Part shown: positions 10,501 through 52,603 of the stretch, one piece after another
Numbering within the stretch: position 1 is the first letter of the stretch
Layout of the letters: the number at the start of each line of letters is the position of its first letter
DNA from: Prorocentrum cordatum
Taxonomy: Eukaryota
NCBI GenBank assembly: GCA_963575745.1
Contig: CAUYUJ010000281.1
Span: forward strand, 372,001 to 436,000
DNA: 64,000 nucleotides
Reading direction: 5' to 3'
Translations under genes and position numbers: made by a program
The notes under the pieces: generated by a model
The model's database searches: none
Told to the model about the DNA's origin: nothing
Seen by the model: only the letters and a program-made list of their open reading frames with translations

Positions 10501-10825
10501 AAGGCCCCCGAGAAGCCCCCAAAGGTCCAAGAGGCTCCCAGGAAGCTCCCAGGAGGCCCCAAGAGCGTCCCCAGAGGCTCCCAAGATGCCCCCTCCTCCT
10601 CCTCCTCCTCCTCCTCCTCCTCCTCCTCCTCCTCCTCCTCCACCTCGTCCTCCTCCTCTTGATCTTCCCCGCCATCCTCCCCCACATGTTCCCCGAAGGG
10701 TTTCCACAACGGTTGGGGGAACATGTGGCCCGATACCGTGGCAGGGCTTTGGCCACAACGCTCGGCCACATGGGCGATTCTAGAAGGCGGGGGGCGGCGG
10801 TGATTCGCCGTAGGCGTCTTCGACT
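6590..10825 (+). repeat. Composite repeat built of degenerate ~11-bp ccaagacggc/ccaagaggc units, two adjacent copies with a shared terminal motif
   Basis: Dense ccaaga(c/g/t)ggc units with recurring cattgat...ggtttt...gtattt spacers; both copies end in ggcggtgattcgccgtaggcgtcttcga (~9403-9430, ~10796-10823); internal (CAT)n at 7370-7980. Confidence 0.75.
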
Positions 10826-13559: not shown

Positions 13560-13875
13560 CGTCGCCGTCCGTCTCCGGTCGCTGAAACGGACCTTGGGCT
13601 TGGGGCGGAAAAACTCTACCTTGTTGCCACATCCTGCACACTTGAGATGACGCCTCTGCAGGATCTTATTCCACTCGCATGTGTTGCACTCGCTGCAACG
13701 GCTCCACATAGCCGCCATCGCTGAAACTGCCTCTGTGTTGGTCGATGGCCTTTCAAATCCGATTGTGTGAAAGACCAGAGTCCCTCAAGCGCTGCGTGGA
13801 AGCCCAGAGGCGAGCTCTGGAGGTGGGAGGGCGCCCGCTGGGGCACCACCACCGCTCGAGCCCAACTTGCTCGAG
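13560..13875 (-). pseudogene. 5' fragment of a retroelement ORF1 (N-terminal CxxC...CxxC) headed by degenerate SL-like sequence
   Basis: MAAMWSRCSECNTC...KCAGCG at 13718; SL-like CTCGAGCAAGTTGGGCTCGAG at 13875-13855 (14/21 to DinoSL). Confidence 0.4.
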
Positions 13876-14589
13876 ATGGGGAGGGGGGGCAGGGGAGAGG
13901 GAAGAGGGAGGGAGGGAGGGGGGGGAAAAGGGGAGAAGGGAGGGGAGGGGAGGGAGGGGGGAGGAGGAGAGGGGGAGGGACAGGAGGGGAGGAGGGAGCA
14001 AGGAGGAGGGAGGGGGGGGGGGAAGGGACGGGGACAGGAGGAGAGGGTTGGAGGGGGGGTCGCGCGGGCGCTTTGTCCGCGCCAGCGGCACGCGCGTGGA
14101 TTCGGTGTGCGCCAGGCGTGCTCCCTGGGCAGGAGCGGCGCGCGGCGGCCGCCTCCCAGGAAGGGGGGGGAGGACACGGGGGGAGGAGGGCCCAGAGCAA
14201 ACCCAAGGGGGCGCGGGGGGAAGGGGAGAGAGAGGGGAGGAGGACCAGAGCAGACCCAGAAGGCGGAGGGAGCGGGGGCGGGCGGGAGAGGGGGAGGGAC
14301 CAGAGGGCACTCGAGGAACACCAGCGCTGCCGCAACGCACCCCCCCCGTCCCAGCTCCCCCTCGTCGTGTGCCCCCGCGAGCAGTCCATTTTCCCTGCGG
14401 GCGTTCGAGAGGCGAGCGCCTTCTGCAACTCATGCGAGAACCCCGCGCTGCCCGTTTTGTTACAGAAAAAAAAGCTCTGCCCTGCACCCCGTCAGACATA
14501 AGACATGCATGGAAGCAAGATCATACATTCAAGCGAGCGCCCAGCGAGAACCCCAATCCCGTGTTGACGGTTCGCCGGCGAGGTGCCGT

Positions 14590-19700: not shown

Positions 19701-20149
19701 CGGACGCCGAGGGCCACGGCGGCGGCGGCGGCGGTCCAGGAGGGCCCCCAGAGGCCCAAATTGATTGTCCTTGGGCTTTTGAAGGATTTGGGGGTGTGCT
19801 TCTTCTCGGCACTCCGACGGCGCAGGCCGGCCCAGGAGGCCCCCGAGATCGACGCTGACGGCCACGGCCTCGACGGCGACGGCGGCGGCGGCGACGACGC
19901 GTCGGCCTCCCAGGCTGCCCCTGCCGGGGCGGCGCCGGAGGCGGCGGAGGCGGCGGCGAGGGGCGCTGCCCAGGCGCGCCTGGGGCGCGCGGGCGGCCGC
20001 GCCGACGACGACGGCGGCGGCGGCTCGCTGGCGCGCCAGCTGCCTGTGCTTCGACGAGGAGGGCCATAGGAGGGCAGGGAGGCGCCGCGAGCTGCTCCCG
20101 TGGGTCCTGCTCGGTTCCCGAAGTGTTTTGGGGGCGAGAAAAAATGTTT

Positions 20150-20680
20150 AGAGCTGTTCCGTGCTGTTGCGCCTCTTCGGGGGTCCTCGTCGCGACGGCT
20201 CGATTCGCCTCGAAGTTCCTATCGGAGGGAACTCCTGGAAAGCTCTGGAGGTAGACTGTGGCTCAGATCCCAAGGCTCCAAGCTTTGCGAGACAACCGAC
20301 GCCGTCGGCTTACTTGGGCTTGGGGCGATCATCGGGCCCCTGGGCCATGAAACAGGCAGCGCAGATAGAGAAACTGGCACCAGGGCCCATGGGCTGAGGC
20401 CTCGAGCCACATGGGCTCATGCCGTGCAGCAGCGCCAAGACGTCGAAGGTGCGGGTCCTGGTCCCTCCGTCGCTCTGCTTCTGCTGCCGCAGCTGCCCCG
20501 GCTGCTGCTGCTCCACGTTCCTCTCGACGCGCCACCGGGCCCCGTGGAGGAGGCCCCTGGGATCCCCCAGGGGGCTACGGAGGTCTCGGCGGCCTCAGAA
20601 GGCCCCAGGGGGCAGCGGGGAGGTCTAGTGAAAACGCCCCGGGAGGCCACATAACGTCTTCGCATGACAAGCTACACCCG
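20150..20680 (+). repeat. Dispersed ~520-bp repeat (family D), second copy at 38620-39150
   Basis: Colinear similarity (cttcgggggtcct-gtcgcgacggctcgattcg ... cgccaagacgtcgaaggtg ... gtggaggaggcccc-gggatcc); both copies followed by (GAG)n. Confidence 0.85.
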
Positions 20681-20684
20681 GCAG

Positions 20685-21011
20685 GAGGGAGGAGGGAGGA
20701 GGAAGGAGGGAGGAGGAGGGAGGAGGAGGAAGGAGGAAGAGGAGGAGGAGGAGGAGGAGGAGGAGGAGAAGGAGAAGAAAGGAGGAGGAGGAGGAGGACG
20801 AGGAGGAGGAGGAGAAGGAGGAGGAGGAGGAAGAGGAGAGGAGGAGGAGGAGGAGGAAGAGGAGGAGGAGGAGGAGGAAGGAGGAGGAGGAGAGGAAGAG
20901 GAGGAGGAGGAGGAGGAAGGAGGAGGAGGAGGAGGAGAGGAGGAGGAGAGGAAGACAGGGGGAGGAGGACAGGGGGAGGAGGACAGGGGGAGGAGGACGA
21001 CGAGGAGGAAG
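20685..21011. repeat. (GAG)n microsatellite
   Basis: Directly visible. Confidence 0.95.
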
Positions 21012-34676: not shown

Positions 34677-35280
34677 GGAGGAGGAAGAGCAGGAGGAGGA
34701 GAAGAGGGGAGGAGGAGGAGGAGGAAGAGGAGGAGGAGGAGGAGGAGGAGGAGGAGGAGGAGGAGAGGAGGAGGGGGAGGAGGAGGAGGAGGATGAGGAG
34801 GAGGAGGAGGAGGAGGAGCAGGAGGAGGAGCAGGAGAGGAGGAGGAGGAGGAGGAGGAGGAGGAGGAGAGGAGAGGATGAGGAGGAGGAGGAGGAGGAGG
34901 AGAAGAGGAGGAGGAAGAAGAGGAGGAGGAGGAGGAGGAGGAGGAGAGGGGCAGGAGGGAGGAGGAAGAGGAGGAGGAGTGAGGAAGAGGAGGGGGAAGA
35001 GGAGGAGGAGGAAGAGGAGGAGGAGCAGGAGGAGGAGAGAGGAGGAGAAGGAGGAGGAGAGAGGAGGAGAGAGGAGGAGAGAGGAGGAGAGAGGAGGAGA
35101 GAGAGAGAGGGGAGAGGAGGAGGAGGAGGAGAGAGGAGGAGGAGGAGGAGGAGGAGGAGAGGAGAAGGAGGAGGAAGAGGAGGTGGAGGAGGAGGAGGAG
35201 GAGGAGGAGAAGGAGGAGGAAGAGGAGGAGGAGGAGGAAGGAGAGAAAGGGACAGGACGGGAGGGGGGAGGAAGGGGATA
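34677..35280. repeat. (GAG)n microsatellite
   Basis: Directly visible. Confidence 0.95.
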
Positions 35281-36305
35281 AGGGGCAGGACGCTCGCACG
35301 CACACACGCCCAAGTGCGGCCACTCTGTGAACGCTGGGGTGGCGCTGGTTGCACCAAGCGTTCGAGTTGAAACAGCTAAAATCGTGCACAGTGCAACGCG
35401 AGCTTGATGCTTGATGGAAGGAAGGGGGAGGAGGGGGGGGGAGCGGTAGGAGGGCAGGAAGGAGGTGGAGGGTGGAGGGGCGGAAGGGGGAAAGAAGGAA
35501 GAGAATAGGGAAGGAGGAGGGGGAGGAGGAGGAGGAGGAGAAGGAAGAGGAGTAGGAGGAGGAGGAGGAGGAGGAGGAGAAGGAGGAGGAGGAGGAGGAG
35601 GAGGAGAAGAAGAAAGAGGAGGATGAGGAAGAGAAAGGCGACGAGAGGAAGGGATAGAGGGGGGAGGGAGGGGGTGGGGAGAGGGGGAGGAGGCGGGGGG
35701 CGGGGGGCGGAGGAGGGCGGATGGCATGAGAGGCGGGCTGGAGATGGAGGTGGAGGGGGAGAGGGAGGGAGGGAGGCTGGAGCGGGAGGCGTCTACCGCA
35801 GGGCTCCGGGCGCTGGGCCCGCCCGGAAAAACGTGGCGCGCAGCGCGCGCTCCGACCCCGCGCACGAACCTGCCGCAGGGACGCCGCCCGAACGGCCGAG
35901 AGGCGCTGTCGCTCGGCAGCCCGGCTGGCAGCGCTCCCTGGCCCTCCCGAAGACGGGGCATGCCGAGGCCGCGGCGACGCCGACGACATGCAGACCGATT
36001 GGACGGCGCGCTCCAGGGTACGGCGCGAGGGGGCGGCCGCCTTCGGAGACAAACGTTTTTTGTGTTTCTTCTTTTTTGTGCTTGTGAAAACACATCAAAA
36101 GCATTCAGAACCATATGTGTATATATATATATATAACAAAAAACAGGCAAGTGGCGTATTGGAAGCCGTGCTGGCTTCTCAGAAGCCTTCGTGGAAGCCG
36201 TGCTGGCTTCTCCTGAGAGGACCCGTTCCTTCGAGGAAGCCCCGCCGCCTTCTTGAGAGGCCGCCGCCCTCGCGCCCCCCCACCCTGTGCGCGCCGCTAA
36301 TGCTC

Positions 36306-37922
36306 TCACCACTTCTTTGACGTCTGGAAGAGGCCAGTCCGGTGGTTCTCCAGCACGCACCACGCGCGCCGCTTCTGTCCCTCCGTGAAGCCCACCATGC
36401 ACGCGTCCGGCGAATAGTCCATGAAGTTGTGGACCGGGTCGGCGCCACTGCCGCAGGAGCTGTCGCGGACGCACTGGTAATGCGGCATCATCTCCTTCTC
36501 CGTGTCATCGACGTAGTCGCCGTCTCTCGAGCAGCCGCCCTCGAAGGTGTGGTACAAGCCAAATCCGTGCCCCGCCTCATGCACCACTGTGTCCCCCTCG
36601 TCGTACATCATGTCCCCCTGGTGCCGTGAGGCATGGCCACGGAACCCCACGGACGACACCACGACCATGTGCTCTGGGTCGTCATCCGTCAGATCTTGCG
36701 GGAACGTGGTCTGACCCAAGATGCCAGACTTGTCGTTCGTGATGATGACGACAGTGAAATAACCCCCTGCGTTCTGGTTGTACTTGTGCAACAGGTGCGA
36801 CTGCGTAAACCCTTCGCGCGCACACGCGCTGTCGGTCACGATGGTGATGTTCATGAGCTTGAAGCTGATCTGCATGTCAACGGAGGGCGGGTGCTTGCTG
36901 TCGAAGTCGAAGTGTAGCCATGGCGACCTGCCAGCAAAGGCCTCGTTGGCCCACCTGTTCTGCTCCCTCACGTGCTCCTCGGTTATGGAATCGTCTTCAT
37001 TCGATTTCTTGCACACTACGTACCTGGTCGGGATCTCCAGCCTGTGAGCCTTGGGAACCTCGGGCAAGTCATGGCCGCACTTGGTCCCCCCAGTGGCACC
37101 CTCCCTGGAACTCCTGCCAGTGTGCGGCTTCGCGTGCGTGATGTGGTAGGACCACTTGTCCGGCAGCCCGACGTGACCGTGGGTCTCGTCTTAGGTCGGG
37201 CATGTCCTCCTACAGGCGGATTTTGAGAAGAAGCACACAATGGTCAAACGATAAACAGAGATAGGCAGCAGAGCACGACGAATCGTCACCAGACTGTTTT
37301 TGTTTACTATTCTGGGATATTCCTCCTGTTGAGGGGCATGCCCGACTTAAGTCTCGTAGATTTCGACGCCAGCCGTGCCGCCGAGGCTGGTCACGTGGAA
37401 GCAGCCCCTGGAGCCTCGCAGGGAGCCGGGGCCGCAGGAAGGCGGGAACCTCAAGCCAGACAGCGATGTCTCGTTGCAGCCAGGGTAATACGAATTGGCG
37501 ATCATCTCGCCAAAAAGCGGCGGGAACGGGTGCTCCACGTGCTGGTAGAACGACGCCCAGACCTTGTCGCTGGGGAGGTACAGGCACCCACCCTGGCGCA
37601 GCGCGGGGGCATGAGGGTGCGACATGACAAACTGCAGGATGTGCCTCGAGTGGCGCATGGTCTGAGATCCGCTCAGCAGCTGCCCCACCCCGCGGTAAAT
37701 CTGCCTGTGCTGCTCGAGTTCGTCAGCGTCCTGGAGGTCGCCGTGCCTCTCGTACACGGCTCTCTGCTCAGGACGACCATGTTCAGCCTGATTCGTTGGC
37801 TCAACGCTGGTGTCAACCTCGGCCTGCTGGTGCGTCGGGTCCAACTCCCTCATGGACAGCGCGTCGGTCAGACGGGTCCGCAGCCAGAGCAGCGCTAGCA
37901 CCCTCAAAGCAGAAGCCGCCAT
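36306..37922 (-). CDS. Secreted M43 (pappalysin/ulilysin-like) zinc metalloprotease, copy 1; join 37922-37352 + 37189-36306, ~484 aa
   Basis: Signal-peptide-like [17 protein letters not shown] putative cysteine switch; [13 protein letters not shown] metzincin motif; NFMDY Met-turn; segments in frame after removing 37190-37351. Confidence 0.88.
37190..37351. mobile_element. MITE family B interrupting M43 copy 1 (putative introner intron)
   Basis: ~30-bp TIR cttaggtcgggcatgtcctcctacagg / cctgttgaggggcatgcccgacttaag; tctcgt at 37184-37189 and 37352-37357. Confidence 0.85.
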
Positions 37923-38006
37923 CGGCCTGCAGGTCTAAATGTACTCAGTGTTGCGGTGCTTAGAGATATCCTGGCGCCTCCGAGATCGTCTCGAACATCT
38001 GGGTGA

Positions 38007-38027
38007 TTTGAACGCTCAGGCTACAGT
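38007..38027 (-). other. Possible degenerate spliced-leader relic upstream of M43 copy 1 (also 50339-50359)
   Basis: Minus strand ACTGTAGCCTGAGCGTTCAAA vs DCCGTAGCCATTTTGGCTCAAG; ~85 nt before ATG, after a pyrimidine tract; weak match. Confidence 0.3.
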
Positions 38028-38619
38028 TGAAATGGGGAGGAGGATGGGGGGGAGGAGACGCTGATTACATAAACTGACATGGAACTTCGAAGTCGCCTTT
38101 ATACCGACCTCCCCTTACCGAAACTGGTTCACACTGCCCCCACTGCCCCTTCCGCCCCATCCTCAACCTTCTCATCATCCCCGTCTTAATTTCGAAGCCC
38201 CCGAAGGTTCCGCGTGGCACACCACCCACATCTGTCGAACTAGTCAACACGCACCATCCCGTCAAGCAGAATTTACATGAGGCGGCGGACAAAGATAATA
38301 GGACGGCTGACATGGCCGCCAGCTCCACCCCGCCTGGCCATTCTCTGAGACAAGCACGCGCGTGTTCATAGATGTGCCGATGTCGAATTACTGAGATCGG
38401 ACTTTGTTTGCAGCAGCGCAGGCACTGGCTGTGTAGCGCGCAATGCTGTGCTGCCCTGCTTTAGCAAATCGCTCGAAATAACTGGGCCGGCTCAACATGT
38501 AGCGCTGTGGCCCCGAGCGCTTCGTCGGTGGAATGGCGGACTTTGACAGTGGGCACTACACGCCAAACCCATCGAGGGCAGAGAGAGGAGAAAGGGGAGC
38601 AGGAGAAAGAATGCTCAGA

Positions 38620-39150
38620 TCTGTTTCGTCCTTTACGCCACTTCGGGGGTCCTTGTCGCGACGGCTCGATTCGTTCCGAAATTCTTATCAGAGGGAGTTC
38701 CTGGAACGGTCCGGAGGTCGACTGCGATTCGAATCCTAATGCTCACAGCGTCGCGAAAAAATCGAGTCGGTCGGCTTGCTTGGTTTGGGCCGGCGCTCGG
38801 GCCCCCGGGCCATGGAACTGGCGGCGCGGATAAAGAAGCTGGCCCCAGAGCCCCTGGGCTGAGGCCCAGAGCTCCAGGAGCGCACCCCATAAAAAAAACG
38901 CCAAGACGTCGAAGGTGTGGGTTCTCCTCCTTCCGTCGCACTGCTTCTGCTGCTGCAGCTTCTCTGCTACTGCAGCTGCTGCTGATCCACGTTCCTCCTC
39001 GCCGCGCCACCCCCCTTGTGGAGGAGGCCCCCGGGATCCAGATGTCTCGGCGCCCTAAGAGGGCCCCAGAAGGCAGCGGAATAGGCATAGAAAACGCCCC
39101 AGAAACCACAAAACTGCTTCCAACGATAAGCGACCGCCAGCTGGAGGGAC
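38620..39150 (+). repeat. Dispersed repeat family D, second copy
   Basis: Colinear with 20150-20680. Confidence 0.85.
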
Positions 39151-41261
39151 GGAGGAGGAGGAGGAGGAGAAAGGACGAGGAGGAGAAGGAGAAGGAGGAG
39201 GAGGCGAGTGGAGGAGAGAAAATGAGGAGGAGGAGGAGGAGGCATGACCCGATCTGAGTTTTGATCCCTGCCCCGCGCCTCGACCACCGCAGACGAGAGG
39301 TCGTGCCACGTCGCTCCGGAGCGCACCGAGCGCCCGCCATGCGACCCTGCAGCACGCTGAGCAGTGAACGTGGCGTGCAGAGCACCAATGGCGAGAGCAA
39401 CGCTGAAAAGGCTCTTCTGCTCAGTACCAACGACATGAATTATGACAAGCGAAGCGATGGGATCGTCGTCCCATCCTTGGGGAAGAAACGGGAGGCACCC
39501 ACGAACACAGGGGATATACCTAGGGCAGGAAATAGAATGTGCAATCTCATAGCCGCCTACCGCGAAGCAGCCATACCAGCACCCAAGACGGCCCTGACGG
39601 AACCTACGAGAGGTAGCCCAGGCATTGCACAAGGGCTTGAGCACCGAACTGACAACACAAGACCCAAACTTTTGTCGAACCAGACAAATCTAGATCTGCA
39701 AAGATCACAAAGTCGGGGAGGTGTGGGGCATCCGTCAATTCAGACAGGCACTGAGCATGCGTGCGGAGGAAAGGGAGAGGAGAGATATCCACCAGTACCT
39801 TTGTTATTGTGCTTTGAAGACCGTCGCAAATATTGGTGGGGATCGTCGGGACATCGACGAGAGACTCAAAGTTGCGCAGCATGTGGACATAGGAGGAGGT
39901 GCGGCAAGTAGGCGAAGGCATAAATAACAACTCGCATTTGATGGTGCCTAAACGCCCCCAGAAACTCACGAGTGCGCGCAAACTCGTCTGAACGGAGAGC
40001 GGCGCGGAACAGGGCAGCACGGAACAGGCTTGACACGAGATGCCACAGTTCTCTAAATCGTAAAGCAGACCACTAGGTAACGAATGTCTGGGCGCCACTG
40101 GGAGCTGCTGGAGAGCTTGATTTCACCCCCCAGACATGTCTGATGATTGGATAGGACTGAGCAGTATGTTGGGAAACAGGTTGGCGATAGATATCGCGCA
40201 TGTGTAAGTTCCTGCAAGGCCTACACAGACACCCTTAACATCCCTGGCACGTTTCGTCGGCATCCTACAAAGGCAAACCCAGGAAATATGTTCACTATCC
40301 AGGCCCACGGTCACTCCACGGTATCTACCAGAGCGCCCAAGATAACGAGCTTTCGCCCGAAACTGATTCGCCCTGCAGTCCGGCGAAACAACTGCTCCAC
40401 CTGGTCGTGTGGCAGCGCGAACTGGCACCTGGCAGGGCGCAGGAAAAGGCCAAGGGTCCTCCCTAGCTGAAGAAGCGGCTTACCATCTTCTTGTTGGCGG
40501 CACCCAGATCGAACGCAGCAATCCCAAGATCATCAGCGCGCACATAGGTGAGAACGGATATCGCTCAGAGCATCGCGAAGACGTCGGAATCATGGATCGA
40601 AAACAAGGGCGAAGAGGAGGCCAGCGGGAGGGCTATCTGGTTTAACCCCGCGTTCCACATTGCATTTGCCAAAGCTGCTGCCTCCGAAGCGCAGGCGCAT
40701 GCACATCTTATCGCACGCGTTGCGGGTGATCGGGCAACACGAGAAAGAATGCGCATGTCATCAAATACATACAGAATCCAGCCACGAGCCAAGCAAGGGA
40801 AAGCTTGTCAGAGATCATCAAATGCCACGCCGGGGCAGGGGCAGCTTCTTAAGCTATACACTGGGTGCATCTGCTACCCAGAGCCAAGACACTATCCACA
40901 AGGGAAGGACCACCGCCATAGAGGCGCTGTTCACTATCCACCGCGCGGCGGGCGACCTGGTTAAGTGGCTGTGCCAGGGCGCCGCAAATTAGCTTGCACT
41001 CGCAATTGCCGAAAGCGAGCGGGCAAACATTCTCTGCTGATCTCGTCGGATCCGCCTCCAGCGCGCCCTTCGGCAAGATCGCAGGGAAGGCGTCGTTGAA
41101 CTCATCGTGAATTTTCCCCCGTCCCAATGCTATGACAATAACGCCGATGAAGAAGATTTCGATCAGCAGTTCCTCCGCGCCTCCACCCCGAGCGAGGGGC
41201 GCCGTCCAGGCCAGGACTCGAGTCCCTGGCTTTATCATTCATCAAACTGGCCGACTAAATC

Positions 41262-41465
41262 TTGGAGGCCTGGAAATGGGCACCAACACCAACACAGGGG
41301 GCTGCCTCCACGGGGGGAAGATGATCCTAGATTTCGGTGGTGGTGGCAATATTTCGGTCACCTTGGAAGCCAGAATATTACCACCATCACCGAGATCGGG
41401 CTCGTCATCCCTCGGTGGAGGCACGCCGCCGATCTTGGCGTTGGTGTCAACCTCTAGGCCTCCGA
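41262..41465. mobile_element. 204-bp fold-back MITE with 6-bp TSD inside L4
   Basis: Arms ggaggcct...caccaacaccaa / ttggcgttggtg...aggcctcc; taaatc at 41256-41261 and 41466-41471. Confidence 0.85.
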
Positions 41466-41662
41466 TAAATCTCCACTCGTTACCCACAGTGCGTCCTGCG
41501 GAGCTGCTTGGATCCGCTGCCCGCGCTCTTGCGCGCCTCCTTGCGGGGGCGAAAAGGTCGACGGGCATTCGCCCGGCGGTTCTGCAGGAGGCCGGCGCGC
41601 GCGCGGGGTCGGGCGCGGGCCGCCTCCGGGGGCCGCCAATTCCCGGGGGCGCCACCTGCCTA

Positions 41663-41849
41663 CCCAGACCCCTTCGAGTAATGAAAAAATCATGACGGGA
41701 GGTTTTTCCTAATTTTCGGCCTCCGGGGGCCCTCGCCGGGCCTCGGGAGCGTAAAAAAACGACTCAGGATGCAAAGCCGGTCATGGGGAAAGGGTCGGGA
41801 CCTCTGGGGGTCGACGTAATGACAAAAATCATTACGTCGGGGGTCTGGG
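41663..41849. mobile_element. TA-flanked MITE inside L4
   Basis: ta|cccagacccc..gtaatga ... tcattac..ggggtctggg|ta. Confidence 0.8.
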
Positions 41850-44221
41850 TATAACGAGGGGCCAACGCAAGAGACTACCACGAATGCTTTGCTAGCCGGG
41901 CAGGCCACGCCTAAGAAGAAGCGGCCCCACCGCCAGCGAGCTCCACTCGCTCTTCTTCCAGTTCTGCTCGGCCTAGGGCAGCTTGCCGGGGTCGGTCAGG
42001 TAGTGCTCGTCTGGGGCAAAATCCAGAGGCTCCGGGAACCGTCGAACAGCGGTTCTCCCGCGGCCCAGGTCGTTGTTCCTTCTGGCCCGACCATGGGCCA
42101 TGCACCGGGAGATGCGATGCCCGATCGATTTGGAACTGCCCGCGCAGGACGCGATCTGAATCTCCAGGGAAGCAATGCGCATGATCGGTTTCGCCTGTGC
42201 CATCACCAGAAGAGCATCTTCAGAAATACTAAATTGCTTAATCGTCCTCTCTGCTTCCACCGCGAGCTCAGGCTGGCGACATGCCCAGCGTGGGATCGAG
42301 GAGCGCGTGTTCGGGCGCTGAACGGCAAGACTAGCACAAACGCGAGCACGAACGATTACTTACCGAATCTCTACTGGCTGCCATTCAACTCCAGCGGCAG
42401 GCGCGAAGCATGCAAGCACAGAGGGAAGCATCGACGTACATACATCCGACCATTGCGCGACGCACTCAATACTGCCCCATTTGTATGTTTACTATGTGGG
42501 CGGTGCACATGTGCAAGTTCGGTATAGCAGGAGACATATCTGCCAAATTAACTTGCTAGCGATCCACTGGGAGTCTTATCCAAAGACGGGTCCACGCGCT
42601 GCTTAGACAGGCCCAGTGCACAAACATTCCCGTCGCCACCTACACAGACAGAAATATGCTGCGGGACCAGCGATCTCGCGACACAAGAACGAGAACGTTT
42701 CTTCCCAATGCTCGAGTCTTTGGGGCCATTGAGACAATGGCAAGGTACATTGAGCTCCAGAGCGGTGCGCTCGCCGGCTGCAGTATTCACCGAATCGACG
42801 GGTTCAAAATGCGAGTGGAGACGGTCGTGGACGCAAATCATCAAATATTTGATCATCACAGAACGCGCCGTAACATGTGCGGGAGGGGGGAAGCGAGCGA
42901 GAGTGTCTGAATCACCGACGTGTCCGTGGGGTTCTAGAAATAAGAGGCAGTCGAATTTGCCAGCTACCCCAAGGAATGGGCCCCACTCGGCGCGCCAAGC
43001 AGTGCAGCGGCATTCCAGATGCAGATGGACAAGTGACTAGGAAGCACCCGAGTAACAGCAGGAGGGGGAACAGAGAGGGCACCAGGCGGCGAGCGCAGCA
43101 AAGATAATGGAAGAGCGGCACAGTCCTCATTCACTTCAGGAAGCCATCGGACCAGATTGAGCATCTCCAGGATGGGCTTCATCCTCTCGCATGTGAGTCC
43201 CAGTTCAAGGCGCTCGGCATGGGGGCCCCAATTCGAGGCACGTTCATCAGCAACGACACTGACGAGGCCACACGCAGCAGACTCCGATGTCACCGAAACT
43301 GGGTTGCAGAACGCAGAGCAGCCAAGTTTGCACTTCTGAATTTCCCGGTCCTGGCGCGACTTGGGCAGCTTCGTTAGAGGTAGCTGCGAACTTCACGAGG
43401 TAGGTCGCCTCGGCAGTGCAACTGAATTACAACACCGCCCCCGGGACCCGCCCAAGTAACTGCGTTCATGCCAAACCGCGAACTGAACGCCTTAGCCTGC
43501 TCTTCGGACTGCCATGCCGCGCCGGACCTCTGAGACGAACGATGAAAAAGGAGGGGCAGCATCTTTTTGTGGAATCTGCGATGGCAGCTTCGCTGCAATA
43601 TCTTGCCGCGCCTGCTTCAGAGTGATATCCATAAACCTTTTCTGAGAATGCGCCGATCCACCGACGACCGGAATTTTGAGCGCCTGCAGTCAGTAACATT
43701 GGAAGACGACCACTCAGCATGCACCGAAAAAGCTGCGGGTAGCGAAGACAAGCGAAACATTCAACGCGACGGCGCTTCGATCCTTGAGACCACGAAGAGG
43801 AGGCGCCACAGTCAGAAACAGCAGCGTTCGCGGAAACGTCGACTTTCAAAGTGTTGACTGCCTGCGTACATTCGTCATGCTTGCCGTTCAGCTTATTGTC
43901 GAGCTCAAGCATCTGGGCCTGGATGCCTTCGACCTGGGGCTTGAGAGCCATGCGTTCCTTCCCCGAGTTGTCCGTATTCCCAATGGCCGGCGTCGTCGTC
44001 GCGCGGTCGCGACCATGCTTCTCGTGCTTCCCCTCCAGCATTTTCACGGTGGCCTCCAAGTCAGCCGTGGAAGTTCGAAAAAAGCGGAAGGGGTCCATGG
44101 GCTTCAGTGGCAACGTGCTTGCGTGCGACACTGATCGAGAATCGGGGCTCCAGGATCTGCCTGGGGCGGCCTCTGCCATCCCCGAGCGGCGCGGCAACGC
44201 GCCACCTCGAGAAGTCGATCG

Positions 44222-44258
44222 CTCGAGCCAAACTGGCTTGAGCCGAACTGGCTGCGGA
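44222..44258 (-). other. Spliced-leader-like 22-mer plus tandem 15-nt relic
   Basis: TCCGCAGCCAGTTCGGCTCAAG (19/22 to DCCGTAGCCATTTTGGCTCAAG) followed by CCAGTTTGGCTCGAG (13/15 to CCATTTTGGCTCAAG). Confidence 0.85.
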
Positions 44259-44699
44259 GGAGGAGGGGGAGGGGGCGCGCGCCTTCCCCGAGTGGCGCGA
44301 CGCAGCTCGCCGAGATCGCCCGGGGCTCCGAGGGGCGGCGCTCGGGCCCGCTCTGGGCCGGGCCGGCGCGCGCCCCACTCGCCGCCCGCGCCGCCCGCGG
44401 AGCTGAGGTACGAAGCCGATGTGGCATCGCAGCAGCAATTCGGCCCTTGACTTTCGTCCTCGGTTCGGCTTAGTGAAGCGATGAATTTCGGGGCCCTTGC
44501 GCGGGGAAAAACATCGCTTCACTAATCTGAGGCCCCTGGGGCCTCAGTGGGCCCCGGGGCCCAAAATCAGCGAAGTGATGGCTATCGACCCTCGGATGAG
44601 ACAGACCAGACTTGTAGGGGGGCGTTCGCATCAGAACTTCCCGCGGCGAGAGGGCGACCGCAGGGCCCTCGCGCAGGCGCCGGCGAGCGCAGGGGCGCG

Positions 44700-47530
44700 G
44701 GCCCCGCAGCTGCTCGCCTCGTCTGCGCCGCGCCTGGGAGTTGACGAGCTGGCCCTCGCAAGTCCGCTAAGATGTCGGTGGCCCTGCCGCTCGAGAAGGC
44801 GCCGCAATCGCCGCGAAACAAGACTGCCAGCGAGCAGAAACACGCATCGGCTCAACGGCAGCTGCAAGGGGGCCGCCCTCGGGGCGGGCGACAAACGGAT
44901 ATCCATCGAGGGCGCCCGTCGGCAGGGCATCCTGACGAAAGCCCCCTGGCCCTTGAAGGTGCGGAACTGCCTTCCGCAGCCCCAGTTCTGACGCAGGCGC
45001 GCCTCTGTTCCCGGAGGAGGGGCGAGGGGGTGCCCGGGAAGGCCCAGCCCGAGCCCGCGGCATCTCCCGCGACCCCACCATTTGGCGCCGCCGCCCAGTG
45101 GCGCCTGCAAGTACACCAGCGCGCGAGGTCCTGCTGACCCCGAAATTGCACGCATTGCAAGCGTCATCTGAAAGCTCCTGCCAAATTTTCTCTAGCCCGG
45201 GGGGGGGATCTACCGCGGCCCCAACTTTGGCCCGCGGTCGCCCGTGCGACTGCGGGCCAACCAGTGGAAGGGAAATCCACCCGGGGTAGTCGCCTCGGCC
45301 GCAATAACCCACTCCGCTATCAAGGTGGCAGAGACCGACGAGCCCACGCCCTGCCAACTGGGAGACGAGCCGCCACTTGTGGAACATATCCTCATCGGCC
45401 AAGTCGAGATTGACTCCGAAGTATGGCCGCCGAGGCGGCTGCGACGGGCGCCCCGCGGGCAACTCCGCGGGGAAAGGCTCGGGGCGGGCCAGTCGCCAGC
45501 CGCGCTGGACGCGGATGCGCGAGTCAGCGCGACCTGCACGGGCGACCGCGGGGAGGCCGAGGTGTCCAGGACCGTGGCCTTCCCACATGCAGCAGCTATC
45601 GACGTGTCGACGACGAAGAAATCGACTGTCCTGCCGCCGCCAAGCCCCGCGCACGTAACTTGCTCTGGTGCTGGGGGTACTCCAGCAACGTCCTCGAGCC
45701 AGCCCGCGCCTTCCAGCGAGCCCACGACGTTGCGGAAGTCAACTTGCAAAACCCACGGCAGCCCGCAACGCGCGATAAAACCTCCGATCGTTTCAAGTAT
45801 AAACGAAAACCTGATTGTCCATCCTTCGTTCGTCTACAGATAGGCAGACGCCATGATGGGCCCGCCCGGCTGTCCGGCTGGGGCCCGCCCAGCTGCGATC
45901 CTTCCTGGCGGCCCCAGCTGCGATCCTTCCTAGCGACTCCTGCCTTCCAGGACCGTAACTCCCATGGTGCGCGGCACGAGCAGACCTGCTCCCGCGCTTC
46001 GAACTCCGCCAGCGCCTTCGGCGGAGGGTGCGGAGTCGGCGATGAAGCTACGCTGGCAGCGTGCTGCCTCCACTTGCTGACGCCAGAACGGGAGAGGCGC
46101 AGCTCCTGCAAAAAGAAAATGCGGTAGGCTGCCAGGTCGTTAGCCTCGTCAGTGTAGTCGACGGCAGACGACCAGGCGTTAGCATTCAAACCAATCAGCT
46201 GCAGCCCCGGTTTCTGGTGGAGCTTCTGGCCACAGCGGCCCCTGGCGGCGCCGCGCGCATGGCGGCGCGGCGGGCTAGGAGCCCGCAGGGGGGCCGCCTC
46301 CGCCGCCGCCAGCTGTCGCGGCGGCCCGCTGCCGAGCTGCCTGAGCCACGGCTGCAGCATCGCCAGAAGCAGCAGCGCCGCCCGCGCCAGCGCCCGCAGG
46401 CGCTTCCCAGGCCGATCCTGGGGCCAGCGCAGCGAGGGGTGGTCCTCCGCCCGCGCGCGGCGCGGCAGCTTAGTTGCCGGCTGTCGCGGCCTTGGGGGAG
46501 CCGGACGCCGCGGCGCCGCCGCCCTCTGCGCGGCGGTGCTTCGCCGCAAGGTGCGTGCGCATCGCCGCCAGCTCCGCGCGCCGTGCCCTGATCGCCTCGG
46601 CGCTGGTGCTGAAGACCTCCTTGACCCTGCCCTTGATCTCCTGAGCGAAGGCCGCCTTGAACTCGTCCCGTTGCTGCTTCTCGGAATCATCCAGGTCGTA
46701 CTTGATCTGGTCGAGGTCGTCGCGCAGCAAATTACTGAGGTTGATAGCTGTCGCTGCAGGCGCTGGCGCAGGCGCCTCCTGAGCCTCGGCCCCGCGCCCA
46801 CGGCTGATGGGAGCGAGGGTGTCGCCGACGTCCGCCTTCGCCGTGGCAAGCGCCTCGGCGGCAGCAGCGGTGTTTGCACGACGCAGCTCAAACCAAACGA
46901 CCGCCTTGTGCTTCGACGTGGTCGCCTGCTCGAGCGACTGGTTGGCGCGCTGCTCCACCGCCACCAGACGCTGGTCCTTGGCATGCGAACTCTCATGCTG
47001 CTCCTTGGGCGCTGGTTCAGCCGCTTCCTGAAGCCCTGCAACGCGTCGAGCTGGTCGGGTGCGACACGGCTCTCGAGGACGAGGAACGTTGAGGCCAGCG
47101 CGGGCGGGTCCCCAGGCGGAAGCAGGTCCCCACCCGAGCCTTTCCCGCGGCCCTACTTGGTCCTCGTCCCCGCGCCCATGTCGTCGTAAGAACTCTAGGC
47201 CCCGCGCGGCGTGTGCCGGGGCGCAGGCGGGAGCTCCAGCGGCGCCGCGCACCTGTAGCACGCCTCGCAGCCCTTTCCACTTGTACTTGTAAGTCCTGGC
47301 GTGGCACTTGTTTTGCCCATGCGGCTGCTTGCCCATGGGTCGGCGCGGCACGGCGCAGGCTCCCCCAGGAGCCTGCGGAAAGCTGTGCCGAGGTGGGGCG
47401 GACCACCACGGCACTCACCCTGGGGCGGACCAGGGGAAGCGTTGAAGGCAGTGCTCGGTAGAGCAATCCCTGCAAGCTCGGAGGCTGAATGCCCGGCAAG
47501 CACATCACCTTGATCCAGACTTGCTACGGA
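44700..47530 (-). mobile_element. Decayed non-LTR retrotransposon L3, 5' part only (SL-like head, ORF1, APE); 3' boundary approximate
   Basis: ORF1 MGKQPH...CEACYRC (frameshift) + coiled coil; APE: IGLNANAW, FFLQELRL (~46100-46200), VDFRN, TVDFFVV, SPRSPV (45500-45750); no RT seen. Confidence 0.8.
47509..47530 (-). other. Spliced-leader-like 22-mer at 5' end of L3
   Basis: TCCGTAGCAAGTCTGGATCAAG, 18/22 to DinoSL; directly abuts (GAG)n. Confidence 0.75.
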
Positions 47531-47880
47531 GGAGGAGGAAGAAGAAGAGGAGGAGGAGGAGGAGGAGGAGAGAGGAGGATGAGGAGAGAGGAGGACGGAG
47601 GAGGAGGAGGAGGAGAGGAGGAGGAGGAGGAGGAGGAGGAGGAGGAGGAGGAGCGGAGAAGGAGGAGGAGGAGGACGAGGTGGAGGAGGAGGAGGAGGAG
47701 GAGGAGCGAACGTCGCCTAGGAGGAGGAGGGGGAGGGAGGAGGAGGAGGAGGAGGAGGAGGAGGAGGAGGAGGAGGAGGAGGAGGAGGAGGAGGAGAAAG
47801 GAGGAGGAGGAGGAGGAGGAGGAGAAGGAGGAGAAGGAGGAGGAGGAGAGGAGGAGGAGCAAGGAGGAGGGGAAGAAGGG
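47531..47880. repeat. (GAG)n microsatellite
   Basis: Directly visible. Confidence 0.95.
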
Positions 47881-48654
47881 ACACGACGCTCGCACGCGCG
47901 CCCAGGCGCGGCCCCTCTGTGGACTCTGTGGTGGCGCCGGCGGCACCAAACGTTCGGGTTGAAACAGCAGAAACCGTGCACAGTGCAGCGCGCACTTGAT
48001 GGGAGGAGGGGGAGGAAATGGAGGGTGGAGGGGGCGGGGGGGGGAAAGGAGGAGGAGGGGGAAGAGGAGGAGGACGAGGAGGAGGAGGAGGAGGAGAAGG
48101 AGGAGGAGGAGGGTTGGGAGAGGGGGACGAGGCAAGGGCGGGGGGCGGAGGAGGACTGATGGCATGAGAGGCGGGCTGGAAATGGAGGTGGAAAGGGAGA
48201 GGGAGGGAGGGAGGCTGGAGCGGGAAGCGACTACCGCGGGGCTTCGGGCGCTGGGTCCGCCCGCCAAAATGGGGCGCATCGCACGCTCCGACCTCGCGCA
48301 CGAACCTGCCGCAAGGGTGCAGCCCGAACGGCCGAGGCGCTGTCGCTCCGCAGCCCAGCCGCAGCGCTCCCAGGCCATCCCGAAGACGGGGGATGCCGAT
48401 GCCGCGGCGACGACGGCATGCAGACCGTTTGACGGCGCGCTCAAGGGTGTGGCGTGAGGGGGCAGCCGCTTTCGGAGGCGTAGGGGGGTCTCTAAGCAAG
48501 CAGGTGGCTTACTGGAAGCCCTGCCGTCTTCTCAGAAACAGTCTTGGAAGCCTCTGGGCCCTTCTGAGAGGACCCGTTCCTTCTAAGAGGCCCCGCCGCC
48601 TTCTTGAAAGGCCGCCGCCCTCACGCCACCCCCTTGTGCGCGCCGCGAATGCTC

Positions 48655-50254
48655 TCACCACGTCTTCGACTTCTGGAAGAGGCCGGCCTGGCTGGTCTCC
48701 AGCACGCACCACGCGCGCCGCTTCTGCCCCTCCGTGAAGCCCACCATGCACATGTCCGGCGAGTAGTCCATGAAGTTGTGGACCGGGTCGGCGCCACTGC
48801 CGCAGGAGCTGTCGCGGACGCACTGGTAATGCGGCATCATCTCCTTCTCCGTGTCGTCGATGTAGTCGCCGTCTCTCGAGCAGCCGCCCTCGAAGGTGTG
48901 GTACAAGCCAAATCCATGCCCAGCCTCATGCACCACTGTGTCCCCCTCATCGTACATCATGTCCCCCTGGTGCCGTGAAGCATGGCCACGGAACCCCACG
49001 GACGACACCACGACCATGATCTGGCCATGCGGGAACATGGTCTGGCCCAAGAAGCCAGACTGGTCGTCCGTGATAATGACGACAGTAAAATCATCCCCCG
49101 CGTTCTGGTTGTACTTCTGCACCATCCGCGACTGCGTGAACCCCTCGCGCGCACACGCGCTGTCGGTCACGATGGTGATGTTCATGAGCTTGAAGCTGAT
49201 CTGCATGTCCACGGAGGGCGGGTGCTTGCTGTCAAAGTCCATGTGTTGCCATGGCGACCTGCCGGCAAAGGCCTCGTTGGCCCACCTGTTCTGCTCCCTC
49301 ACGTGCTCCTCGGTGATAGAGTCGTCTTCGTTCGATTTCTTGCACACTACGTACCTGGTCGGGATCTCCAGCCTGTGAGCCTTGGGCACCTCGGGCAGGT
49401 CACGGCCGCACTCGGCCCCCCTTATGGCACCCTCCCTGGAACTCCCGCCGATGTGCGGCTTCGCGTGCGTGATGTGGTAGGACCACTTGTCCGGCAGCCC
49501 GACGGCACCGTGGGTCCCGTCTTAGGTCGGGCATGTCCTGCTACAGGCGGATTGCGAGAAGAAATACAAAACAAGTCAGACAATAGTCAAACCAATGCAT
49601 AAAAAAAACGGCACATCGTCACCAGACTTGTGTTTCTACTGTGCTTGAGTACTCCTCCTGTTGAGGGACATGCCCGACTTAAGTCTCGTAGATTTCGACG
49701 CCAGCCGTGCCGCCGAGGCTGGTCACGTGGAAGCAGCCCCTGGAGCCTCGCAGGGAGCCGGGGCCGCAGGAAGGCGGGAGCCTCAAGCCAGATAGCGATG
49801 TCTCGTTGCAGCCAGGGTAATACGAATTGGCGATCATCTCGCCAAAAAGCGGCGGGAACGGGTGCTCCACGTGCTGGTAGAACGACGCCCAGACCTTGTC
49901 GCTGGGGAGGTACAGGCACCCACCCTGGCGCAGCGCGGGGGCATGAGGGTGCGACATGACAAACTGCAGGATGTGCCTCGAGTGGCGCATGGTCTGAGAC
50001 CCGCTCAGCAGCTGCCCCACCCCGCGGTAAATCTGCCTGTGCTGCTCGAGTTCGTCAGCGTCCTGGAGGTCGCTGTGCCTCTCGTACACGGCTCTCTGCT
50101 CAGGACGACCATGTTCAGCCTGATTCGTTGCCTCAACGCTGGTGTCAACCTCGGCCTGCTGGTGCGTCGGGTCCAGCTCCCTCATGGACAGCGCGTCGGT
50201 CAGACCGGCCCGCAGCCAGAGCAGCGCCAGCACCCTCAAAGCAGAAATCGCCAT
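48655..50254 (-). CDS. Secreted M43 zinc metalloprotease, copy 2; join 50254-49684 + 49520-48655, ~478 aa
   Basis: Paralog of copy 1 with the same [13 protein letters not shown] and NFMDY motifs, 6-aa in-frame deletion; in frame after removing 49521-49683. Confidence 0.88.
49521..49683. mobile_element. MITE family B interrupting M43 copy 2 (putative introner intron)
   Basis: Same TIRs and position as 37190-37351, diverged interior; flanks tcccgt / tctcgt. Confidence 0.85.
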
Positions 50255-50769
50255 CGGCCTGCAGGCCTACATGTACTGAGTGTTGCGGTGCTTAGAGATA
50301 GCCTGGCGCCTCCGAGATCGTCTCGAACATCTGGGTGATTTGAACGCTCAGGCTACAGTTGAGATGGGGAGGAGGATTGGGGGGGGAGGAGACGCTTGTG
50401 AGAGAATTCAATATGGCATAGCACTTCGAAATCGCCGTTGTACCGACCACCCCTTCCCCAAACTGGTTCACACTGCCCCCACTGCCCTTTCCGCCTCATC
50501 CTGACTCTTCTCATCATCCCTGTGTCCTCACATCGAGACCCCCAAAGGTTCCGCATGGCACGCCACCCACATGTATGGTACGACCGCAGTCAACACGCAT
50601 CATCCCCGACAGGCAGAACTTACACGAGGCGGCTGACATGGCCACTGGCACTAGCCCGCCCAGCCATTCTCTGAGACAGACACGCGCATACTCATCAGAG
50701 TGAGGGGGCTGAGCCGAACGGTCATTCACTGTCCCTGGGAGCGTGGGTGAAGTGGAATTCCACGATGCG

Positions 50770-50799
50770 GATTATTGTTACTGTTGTTGTTGCTGTTGC

Positions 50800-50849
<50 letters not shown>

Positions 50850-51008
50850 TTGTTGTTTCTGATGTCTTTTTGTTGTTTGTTGTTTGTTGTGTGTTGTGTG
50901 TTGTTTGTTTGTTGTTTGTTGTTTGTTGTTTGCTGTTTGCTGTGTGTTGTTTGTTGTTTGTTGTTTGTTGGTTGGTGTTTGTTGTTTGTTGTTTGTTGTT
51001 GTCGTCGT
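50770..51008. repeat. (GTT)n/(GTTT)n microsatellite
   Basis: Directly visible. Confidence 0.95.
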
Positions 51009-51009
51009 C

Positions 51010-51670
51010 TAACCCGCGACCCGCCTCGCGACCCACCCGCGACCCACCCCACGACCCACCCGCGACCCACCCGCGACCCACCCCGCGACCCACCTGCGAC
51101 CCACCCCGCGACCCACCCGCGATCCACCCGCGACCCACCCGCGACCCACCCCGCGACCCGCCTGCGACCCACCCCGAGACCCACACCGCGACCCACCCGC
51201 GACCCAACGGCGACCACCCGCGACCCAACCCGCGACCCACCCGCGACCACCCCGCGACCCACCCAAAATTTTCGGCGCCTGCGGCAGGCTTCTTGTTGCA
51301 TTCGTTCCAGGTGAAGAACCTGCGACCACCGCGACCCAAACCGCGCCCGCGACCCAACCGCACCGCGACCCACCCGCGACCCACCCGCGACCCCCCGCGA
51401 CCCACCGCGACCCACCCGCGACCCACCCGCGACCCACCCCGCGACCCGCCCAAAATGTTCGGCGCCTGCGGCGGGCTGCTCTTCCATTCGTTCCAAGCGG
51501 AGATCCTGCGATCCACCCACGACCCAAACCGCGTTCAGTGTACAAATCAAATTTTTCGGCGCCTGCGGCGGGCTGTTTTTGAATTCCTTCCAGGTGGAGG
51601 TGGAGAGCCCGCGACCCACTCGCGACCCAAACTACGTTCACTGAACAAGCCCGCGACCCACCCACCCGGC
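51010..51670. repeat. ~11-bp cgcgacccacc minisatellite with interspersed ggcgcctgcggc motifs
   Basis: Directly visible; ggcgcctgcggc at ~51274, ~51461, ~51558. Confidence 0.9.
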
Positions 51671-51732
51671 GCGCGCGCGCTCAGCGGAGGGGAGGAAGAG
51701 CAGGGCGAGGAGCAGGAGGAGGAAGACGACGA

Positions 51733-51768
<36 letters not shown>

Positions 51769-52603
51769 AGAGGAGGTCGACGACGAGGGCGAGGAGGAAA
51801 AGGAGGGTGGGACGGAGGGGGACGACGAGAAAGGAGGGAGGAGGAGGGGGAGGAGGAGGAGGAGGACGACGACGACGGAAAGGAGGAGGGGGAAGGATCG
51901 GGAGTGGGGAAGAAGAGGAGGAGGAGGAGGAAGATAAGGAGGAGGAGGAGGTGGAGGAGGAGGAGGAGGCGGGCGACGACGACACGACGACGACGACGAC
52001 GACGATGAGGACGATGACGCGGACGAGAAAGAGGAGGAGGAGGAGCAGGAGGAGGAGGAGGAGGGCGCCATCGACAGGGAAGGTGAGGGTCATGAGGTCC
52101 GCAGGCTCGACGCCCGCGTCGCCCGCTCCCGCCCCCTCAGTCTTATCCGCAATTGCGGGGTGCTGCGTACAGGTGTCGATGGCGGGGAACTGAGATCGGA
52201 CAGTTTTTGCAGCAGCGCAGGCACTAACTGTGTAGCGCGCGATGCCGGCCTGCCCTCTCTGGCAGAGCGCTCGAAATAACGGGGCTGGCTCAAAATGTAC
52301 CGCTGTGGCACCGAGCGCTTCGTCGGTGGACAAGCGGGCTCAGGCAACGGGCACTACACGCCAAACCCATCGCGAGCAGAGCTGACGATGCCACGGGTAG
52401 AGAAAGATGCGTCGATCAAACAAAGGGAACTCACGGGGAAGAGAACAGAAGATGAGATCAGACATCGTATTGAAAGCCTCTCAGTGGCCCGCACGTGCCC
52501 TCCCGCCGAATCGGGGAGCCTCATTCTGTCGCTCCCCGTCTCTATGTACCTGCACTGCCAGAATCCTGCTGGCCCGCACTCGCTGGGAGCGCGAGCCACG
52601 CGC

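What the first reader, a model, noticed from the sequence alone, without database searches (positions are those of the whole stretch)
44222..47530. LINE retrotransposons whose 5' ends are spliced-leader sequences
Seen: two different LINEs begin exactly with a DinoSL-like 22-mer. L4 has TCCGCAGCCAGTTCGGCTCAAG plus a tandem 15-nt relic (44258-44222); L3 has TCCGTAGCAAGTCTGGATCAAG (47530-47509). Each abuts the flanking GAG repeat and lies shortly upstream of ORF1. Known: dinoflagellate mRNAs get DCCGTAGCCATTTTGGCTCAAG by trans-splicing, and tandem relics record repeated retroposition. Inference: these elements may lack an internal promoter and regenerate their 5' end each cycle through host trans-splicing, with the integrated SL's AG as the next acceptor.
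Basis: partly seen in the sequence, partly recalled or inferred. Interest (0 to 1): 0.82.

Follow-up and report, generated by a model that had tools for sequence, protein, structure and literature searches.

The report
Retrotransposons headed by spliced-leader sequence
Two decayed mobile-element copies in a dinoflagellate genome start exactly with the host's 22-base mRNA leader, so they were copied from leader-spliced RNA and pasted into a simple CTC repeat; this extends a known dinoflagellate habit to the jumping genes themselves.

Summary
Shuffles give about 0.02 such hits per window.

L3 is a decayed non-LTR retrotransposon. Its ORF1 matches a small dinoflagellate protein family (E 4.8e-20), whose longer gene models carry an endonuclease-like domain that also matches L3 weakly. 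L4's LINE identity rests only on motifs I read by eye.

L3 and L4 sit inside a (CTC)n microsatellite belonging to a tandemly duplicated host unit. The sister unit's (CTC)n is also split, by a 13.6-kb block that contains RT-like and RNase H ORFs.

An unrelated metagenome contig (L071) shows the same anatomy: (CAT)n, a perfect SL, two relics, then a homologous ORF1.

Best reading: the element RNA was SL trans-spliced, reverse-transcribed in full and inserted at a microsatellite. The relics show that SL-headed copies were themselves transcribed, spliced and copied again.

"No internal promoter" and "5' end regenerated every cycle" are plausible but untested. No RNA run and no whole genome were available. 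I rate this a variant of the known SL-relic retroposition, of moderate interest.

The parts
47509..47530 (-). L3 5' terminus: DinoSL-like 22-mer, 18/22
47337..47508 (-). L3 5' UTR, 172 nt
46473..47336 (-). L3 ORF1, 288 codons: decayed CxxC..CxxC finger plus coiled coil
   Evidence: HMMER hits P0001 4.8e-20 and P0002 9.5e-11; alignment
45540..46210 (-). L3 endonuclease (EEP-like) remnant with frameshifts. No RT follows it.
   Evidence: Motifs read by eye; tblastn with P0005, E 1e-3; phmmer E 2.4e-4. Pfam found nothing.
44276..44600 (-). L3 3' end, moderately repeated in the genome
   Evidence: Depth about 57 against a baseline of 3-5 in run X1. One X6 contig continues into (TCC)n in place of L4's SL.
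44259..44275 (-). 17-nt C/T stretch between L3 and L4, read as a remnant of the (CTC)n target
44237..44258 (-). L4 5' terminus: DinoSL-like 22-mer, 19/22
44222..44236 (-). 15-nt SL relic (SL positions 8-22, 13/15)
43469..44098 (-). L4 ORF1, 210 codons, intact, no homologue found
40300..40900 (-). RT-like motif remnants in L4 (GVKxxxP..LLFAL and YVRADD) in two frames
   Evidence: By eye only; no Pfam or Atlas support
41262..41849 (.). Very high-copy ~590-bp repeat nested in L4
   Evidence: Depth in the thousands against 3-5
47531..47883 (-). (CTC)n array upstream of L3; part of the duplicated host unit
39142..39244 (-). Rest of the (CTC)n array, downstream of L4's 3' end
38603..39140 (-). Host segment that normally follows the (CTC)n; 74% identical to 20136-20798
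13855..13876 (-). Possible third, more decayed SL-like 22-mer (15/22), at the edge of a C/T-rich array and about 125 nt upstream of an ORF with an N-terminal CxxC..CxxC finger
   Evidence: post hoc; 0.019 expected in the positions examined

Best explanation
L3 (about 47530-44276) and L4 (about 44258-39246) are old, decayed retroposed copies on the minus strand. L3 is a non-LTR (LINE) retrotransposon and L4 probably is one. Their RNA templates had received the 22-nt dinoflagellate spliced leader by trans-splicing. Reverse transcription reached the very 5' end, so the leader became the first 22 bases of the DNA copy. Both went into one (CTC)n microsatellite downstream of a host M43-peptidase gene, in the same orientation as the host genes. 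L4's SL plus 15-nt relic shows that its lineage passed through an SL-headed DNA copy that was transcribed from upstream, spliced at the AG of SL positions 6-7, and copied again. Shown: the SL termini, the relic, the L3 homology, and the microsatellite on both sides. Inferred: trans-splicing as the source of the SL, read-through transcription from upstream, and a microsatellite-directed insertion machinery.
For: The SL-like 22-mers and the relic are at the stated places and exceed chance. L3 ORF1 matches P0001 at 4.8e-20 and three further proteins. Longer relatives of P0002 are named 'unnamed protein product [Prorocentrum cordatum]'. One of them, P0005, continues into an EEP-like domain (motifs by eye; Atlas score 0.93 to Exo_endo_phos clusters, a lead only). 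That domain matches L3 at 45797-45597 (E 1e-3; E 2.4e-4). Self-comparison shows two tandem host units (34905-38583 and 47529-52381), each made of an M43 gene followed by (CTC)n. The ~550-bp segment that follows the repeat lies at 39140-38603 and again at 20690-20136. So L3+L4 split one (CTC)n, and a 13.6-kb block containing RT-like and RNase H ORFs splits the other. Independent case L071: (CAT)n, a perfect 22-nt SL, the relic CCACATTGGCTCAAG, a second decayed relic, then an ORF1 homologous to P0002 (blastp 4e-10; tblastn 6.9e-6), then an EN-like start. L042 is an SL-headed 3446-nt retrocopy with (AC)n on both sides. A microsatellite lies directly upstream of the SL in 7 of 78 GC-rich metagenome contexts, against 0 of 127 control windows. 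All 4 window ORFs with a Pfam score above the curated cut-off (M43 twice, Cu_amine_oxid, RNase_H) are on the minus strand.
Against: L4 has no homologue, Pfam hit or Atlas hit, so it could be a retrocopy of an unknown host gene. L3 has no RT, so it is internally deleted or composite. Pfam gives no EEP or RVT hit for L3 or L4, and no EEP or RVT hit for P0005. Among 202 ORFs downstream of exact SLs in metagenome loci, none hit RVT. This is weak evidence, because Pfam also misses the window's own RT-like ORF. Only 1 of 129 loci (L071) is a LINE of this family. Other genomic copies of L3 and L4 could not be collected.
Confidence: 0.72

Rival explanations
1. The SL-headed copies are by-products and not the propagating lineage. 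Master elements have their own promoter and no SL. Their mRNAs, like all nuclear mRNAs, get an SL, and occasional full-length copies of spliced mRNA are dead on arrival.
For: L3 and L4 are both decayed (stops and frameshifts). Only 0-2 relics are seen. Papers describe the same SL tagging for ordinary retrogenes (PMC5585692 passages; PMC12014239 passages).
Against: L4's relic and L071's two relics require that SL-headed DNA copies were transcribed, spliced and copied again. Three separate elements show the SL exactly at the 5' boundary.
Confidence: 0.2
2. Template switching: at the end of reverse transcription the enzyme jumped from the element RNA onto free SL RNA. The result would be a chimera like U6-L1 pseudogenes (recalled from memory).
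For: In L3 the SL is followed by GT, as an unspliced SL RNA would be.
Against: L4 and L071 carry 15-nt relics starting at SL position 8 directly after the SL, not SL-intron sequence. Rfam found no RNA family there, though it may hold no dinoflagellate SL RNA model.
Confidence: 0.05
3. SL-gene-specific insertion, as in SLACS/CZAR/CRE of trypanosomatids or NeSL-1 of nematodes (names recalled from memory): the element sits inside an SL RNA gene.
For: SL sequence lies next to a LINE.
Against: The upstream flank is (CTC)n, and the same repeat resumes after L4. The whole 22-mer is on the 5' side only. The endonuclease looks EEP-like, not restriction-like.
Confidence: 0.02
4. Chance resemblance to the SL.
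For: None.
Confidence: 0.01

Closest known systems
DinoSL-relic retrogenes of dinoflagellates (Slamovits & Keeling 2008, as cited in PMC3229502; Song et al. 2017, PMC5585692)
   Same: DNA-encoded SL at the 5' end of a retroposed unit. Truncated 15-nt relics start at SL position 8, and older relics are more decayed. Song et al. report the GO term 'RNA-dependent DNA replication' enriched among SL-relic genes (passage).
   Different: Here the tagged unit is the retroelement itself, and the insertion site is a microsatellite. In the passages I read, no paper says that LINE 5' ends are SLs.
Symbiodiniaceae LINEs (SymbioLINE; de Mendoza et al. 2018, PMC5890265)
   Same: Two-ORF LINE architecture in a dinoflagellate (passages).
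   Different: Their ORF1 encodes a DNMT. The term 'spliced leader' occurs 0 times in that paper.
L1Tc/ingi of trypanosomes (PMC1874656; title and abstract start seen in the search listing only)
   Same: A LINE in an organism in which mRNAs are SL trans-spliced.
   Different: L1Tc has an internal promoter (Pr77) that generates unspliced transcripts. That is the opposite solution for the 5' end.
Microsatellite-specific non-LTR retrotransposons (recalled from memory; not checked in a paper here)
   Same: The same simple repeat lies on both sides of the insertion, and elements stack head to tail.
   Different: Family-level target specificity could not be tested here.

Membership tests
DinoSL-relic retroposed sequence | DNA-encoded DinoSL-like 22-mer at the 5' boundary of the unit | tested here: met
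DinoSL-relic retroposed sequence | Truncated relic starting at SL position 8, directly after the SL | tested here: met
   Met in L4 (44236-44222, 13/15). Absent in L3. Two relics in L071.
DinoSL-relic retroposed sequence | Transcripts carry a fresh SL joined at the AG of the integrated SL | not testable with these tools
   No RNA run was listed
APE-type non-LTR retrotransposon (LINE) | ORF1 belongs to a family found next to LINE ORF2 domains | tested here: met
   L3. L4: not met.
APE-type non-LTR retrotransposon (LINE) | EEP (APE-like) endonuclease domain | tested here: inconclusive
   L3 matches the P0005 domain at E 1e-3 and 2.4e-4. The Atlas lead is 0.93. Pfam gives no hit. The AF2 model is unusable, pLDDT 38.
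APE-type non-LTR retrotransposon (LINE) | Reverse transcriptase domain | tested here: not met
   L3 has none. L4 has motifs by eye only, with no Pfam or Atlas support.
APE-type non-LTR retrotransposon (LINE) | Target-site duplication | not testable with these tools
   The flanks are a simple repeat, so a duplication cannot be told apart
SL-gene-specific LINEs (SLACS/CZAR/NeSL type) | Insertion inside an SL RNA gene, with SL gene halves on both sides | tested here: not met
   The flanks are (CTC)n
Microsatellite-targeting LINEs | The same microsatellite on both sides of the insertion | tested here: met
   Met for the L3+L4 block and for the sister unit. Not tested across the family.

The most novel reading that the evidence does not exclude
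Dinoflagellate LINEs of this type carry no promoter of their own. They insert co-directionally at microsatellites inside one-way gene arrays and are transcribed by read-through. Their 5' end is defined by SL trans-splicing, and the SL is copied back into DNA at each round. The same microsatellite-directed machinery would be what makes the abundant SL-tagged retrogenes. Reviews leave that agent open or assign it to Ty1/copia (PMC6050394 passage).
Probability: 0.3. Interest if true: 0.7.

Novelty: new variant of a known kind. Interest (0 to 1): 0.5.

Why it matters
Every LINE has to solve how a copy made from RNA keeps a working 5' end. Mammalian L1 and trypanosome L1Tc do it with internal promoters. 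If dinoflagellate LINEs instead borrow host read-through transcription and the spliced leader, that would be a different solution. Combined with the microsatellite junctions, it would also point to LINEs as the agent behind the genes reported to carry SL relics (22-23% of genes in two Symbiodinium genomes, PMC6050394 passage). That agent has not been identified. The idea can be tested directly with existing genomes and SL-primed long reads.

Tried and rejected
No whole genome is held for this window.

No RNA holder was listed. Read laying gave contigs only, and its loose-end table was cut, so the 5' junctions of other L3 and L4 copies could not be read.

Searches that found nothing:
- L4 ORF1.
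- The window's RT-like ORF at 31716-32456 (no Pfam hit).
- Relatives of the ORF1 family: metagenome contigs, 550 pattern matches, none confirmed; viral contigs, none; genome contigs, one short and probably spurious match, L130.
- PDB sequence searches with P0005 and P0008: 0 hits.
- P0008 against P0005: not significant.
- Rfam on 43000-48000: nothing relevant.
- Two look-ups of earlier findings returned nothing.

The single-sequence AlphaFold model of the P0005 endonuclease part had pLDDT 38, so I ran no fold search on it.

The Atlas gave no usable hit for the L4 RT-like fragment.

My recollection that the rotifer element Hebe carries an SL was wrong: the term occurs 0 times in PMC2861651.

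The tandem repeat at 8021-10823 contains SL-like words but is a 10-11-nt minisatellite.

The ~590-bp high-copy repeat inside L4 was read but not classified.

Full report
**Observation.** On the minus strand, 47530-47509 reads TCCGTAGCAAGTCTGGATCAAG. 44258-44237 reads TCCGCAGCCAGTTCGGCTCAAG and is followed at once by CCAGTTTGGCTCGAG at 44236-44222. Against the DinoSL these score 18/22, 19/22 and 13/15. No other place in the window matches with up to 5 mismatches, apart from the overlap with the relic. Chance is excluded:
- 0 of 100 dinucleotide shuffles gave a match with up to 3 mismatches.
- 100 mononucleotide shuffles gave a mean of 0.02 matches with up to 4 mismatches.
- The binomial expectation is 0.005.

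**What the elements are: L3.**
- After L3's SL come 172 nt, then an intact 288-codon ORF (ATG 47336).
- Its N-terminus is a decayed CxxC..CxxC finger and the rest is coiled coil.
- HMMER against 1.84 billion representatives found 4 relatives: P0001 4.8e-20 (43% identity), P0002 9.5e-11, P0003 4.8e-4 and P0004 9.8e-4.
- A search for longer relatives of P0002 gave 3 proteins, named by their source 'unnamed protein product [Prorocentrum cordatum]'.
- One of them, P0005, runs from this ORF1 into a domain with endonuclease motifs read by eye (LFFSNITQWG, MVALVETH, ILADWNMTP, LDFALV). It also has a sub-threshold zf-RVT match (E 0.0056).
- The ESM Atlas places residues 375-650 of P0005 next to Exo_endo_phos clusters (0.93, a lead only).
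- That part matches L3 at 45797-45597 (tblastn E 1e-3; phmmer E 2.4e-4 against the local ORF set).
- L3 has stops and frameshifts and no RT.
- Pfam recognises nothing in L3 or L4.
- Pfam also misses an RT-like ORF elsewhere in the window (31716-32456, with motifs KPKGGWRPIA, DIEKCF and FADD). Pfam negatives for these divergent elements therefore carry little weight.

**What the elements are: L4.**
- L4 has an intact 210-codon ORF (ATG 44098), 123 nt after the relic.
- That ORF has no detectable homologue.
- Its RT-like motifs near 40650 and 40560 were read by eye only. Neither Pfam nor the Atlas supports them.
- L4 is therefore a retroposed unit that is probably, but not demonstrably, a LINE.

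**Context.**
- Self-comparison shows two tandem host units on the minus strand, 52381-47531 and 38583-34680.
- Each holds an M43 peptidase gene (Pfam 6e-12 and 3.4e-11) followed by a long (CTC)n array.
- A ~550-bp segment follows the repeat twice: at 39140-38603 and at 20690-20136 (74% identity).
- So L3+L4 (47530 to about 39246) lie inside the (CTC)n of one unit. The repeat resumes at 39244-39142.
- A 13.6-kb block (34680-21030) lies inside the (CTC)n of the other unit. It contains the RT-like ORF and an RNase H (5.3e-7).
- A 17-nt C/T stretch separates L3 from L4.
- In run X6, one contig matching L3's 3' end continues into (TCC)n where the window has L4's SL (a single contig, so a weak hint).
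- (GAG)n-type arrays cover only about 3% of the window. Two SL termini directly next to them is therefore not accidental.
- All four window ORFs with a Pfam score above the curated cut-off are on the minus strand, as are L3 and L4.

**Independent cases.** An exact-match scan of metagenome contigs for the 21-mer plus a non-G base returned 129 loci with 148 SL copies.
- L071 shows (CAT)n, a perfect 22-nt SL, the relic CCACATTGGCTCAAG and a second, more decayed relic. Then comes an ORF whose C-terminal part is homologous to P0002 (blastp 4e-10; tblastn 6.9e-6). An endonuclease-like start follows (TFFAGNPSMWG, IVGYVETH).
- Upstream of L071's SL, on the same strand, a 917-codon ORF has RT-like motifs by eye. 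It has no statistical support.
- L042 is an SL-headed 3446-nt retrocopy of a repeat protein with (AC)n on both sides.
- Of the 126 distinct SL contexts with enough upstream sequence, 78 are GC-rich. A microsatellite fills the 24 nt directly upstream of the SL in 7 of these 78, against 0 of 127 control windows.
- Against generality: none of 202 ORFs of at least 110 aa downstream of these SLs hit RVT. Only L071 matched the ORF1 or endonuclease queries. Most loci hold only 1-2 kb downstream of the SL.

**Mechanism.**
- Shown: the SL forms the exact 5' terminus of the units. L4 and L071 have relics that start at SL position 8.
- Established knowledge, from passages read in PMC3229502 and PMC7245778: such relics arise when an integrated SL-headed copy is transcribed and a new SL is spliced at the AG of positions 6-7.
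- Inferred: the element RNA is trans-spliced like a host mRNA, copied to its 5' end and inserted at a microsatellite. The next round needs transcription that starts upstream, most simply read-through in the one-way gene array.
- Not shown: the absence of an internal promoter.
- The low relic numbers (0, 1 and 2) argue either for few rounds or for use of other acceptors, such as the SL's terminal AG.

**Rivals.**
- Insertion into an SL gene is contradicted by the flanks.
- Template switching onto SL RNA is contradicted by the relics in L4 and L071. It stays open only for L3, where GT follows the SL.
- The main live rival is that SL-headed copies are by-products of promoter-bearing masters.

**Literature.**
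- Song et al. 2017 report 'RNA-dependent DNA replication' enriched among SL-relic genes (passage). RT genes with SL relics have thus been seen, but were read as a sign of activity.
- Reviews leave the agent of retroposition open or favour Ty1/copia (PMC6050394 passage; PMC3942190 passages).
- I found no statement that LINE 5' ends are SLs. This rests on four searches and on passages read in PMC12014239, PMC11453091, PMC5890265, PMC8045281, PMC10235124 and PMC10666404.
- L1Tc of trypanosomes is described in its title as generating unspliced transcripts from an internal promoter (listing).

**Verdict.** The sequence observation is right. L3 is a LINE and L4 is a probable one. The SL origin by trans-splicing and repeated cycling is well supported. 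The promoter-less life cycle is a reasonable but untested extension.

Noticed in passing
L002, L013, L014, L032, L038-L040, L046, L051/L052, L078, L105-L107 and others; viral loci from L131 on: Exact 22-nt DinoSL copies sit just upstream of many genes on long contigs that look viral. There are 42 distinct AT-rich contexts, in 90% of which A is the first SL base, usually preceded by T (83%), behind a T-rich motif, and an ATG mostly follows within about 100 nt. A scan of IMG/VR found 119 stretches, mostly on contigs labelled GVMAG, with many copies per contig. An NCLDV major capsid gene lies downstream of an SL on L046, and DNA polymerase X, RecQ and UvrD-like helicases lie on others. This suggests that giant viruses encode the host leader at the 5' end of their genes. 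The listing of one paper search showed no title on this.
   Followed up: partly
L004, L015, L036, L042, L060, L069, L071, L073, L096, L101, L121: SL-headed retrocopies often start directly behind a microsatellite: 7 of 78 GC-rich contexts against 0 of 127 controls. L042 has (AC)n on both sides of a 3446-nt retrocopy.
   Followed up: partly
window 13855-13876 (-): A third, more decayed SL-like 22-mer (15/22) lies at the edge of a C/T-rich array. It shares the AGCAAGT variant with L3's SL. About 125 nt downstream is an ORF beginning MAAMWSRCSECN.., with a CxxC..CxxC finger like the L3 ORF1 family.
   Followed up: partly
window 41262-41849: A ~590-bp repeat nested in L4 has contig depth in the thousands against 3-5 for its surroundings, in all four runs, with diverging flanks. 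It is a very high-copy interspersed repeat.
   Followed up: no
window 33500-30249 (-): An RT-like ORF (31716-32456) and an RNase H (30249-30776, Pfam 5.3e-7) belong to another retroelement inside the sister (CTC)n. Neither Pfam nor the protein search recognises the RT. A weakly similar ORF lies at 23567-24712 (E 0.005).
   Followed up: partly
window 34905-38583 and 47529-52381: Tandem duplication of a host unit with an M43 peptidase gene, 77-89% identical. Unit 2 has about 1.5 kb extra at 50695-52173. An 'SDHAPL' motif, as found at EEP C-termini, lies upstream of each M43 domain (37665 and 49997; by eye).
   Followed up: no
L071 2635-5385 (+): A 917-codon ORF with RT-like motifs (NAF, FADD, NKSK) and C2H2 fingers lies upstream of the (CAT)n and the SL-headed element, on the same strand. 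This would be a head-to-tail pair of elements joined by a microsatellite, like L3 and L4.
   Followed up: partly
window 8021-10823: A long 10-11-nt minisatellite (CCCAAGAGGCC)n, with SL-like words that arise by chance.
   Followed up: yes
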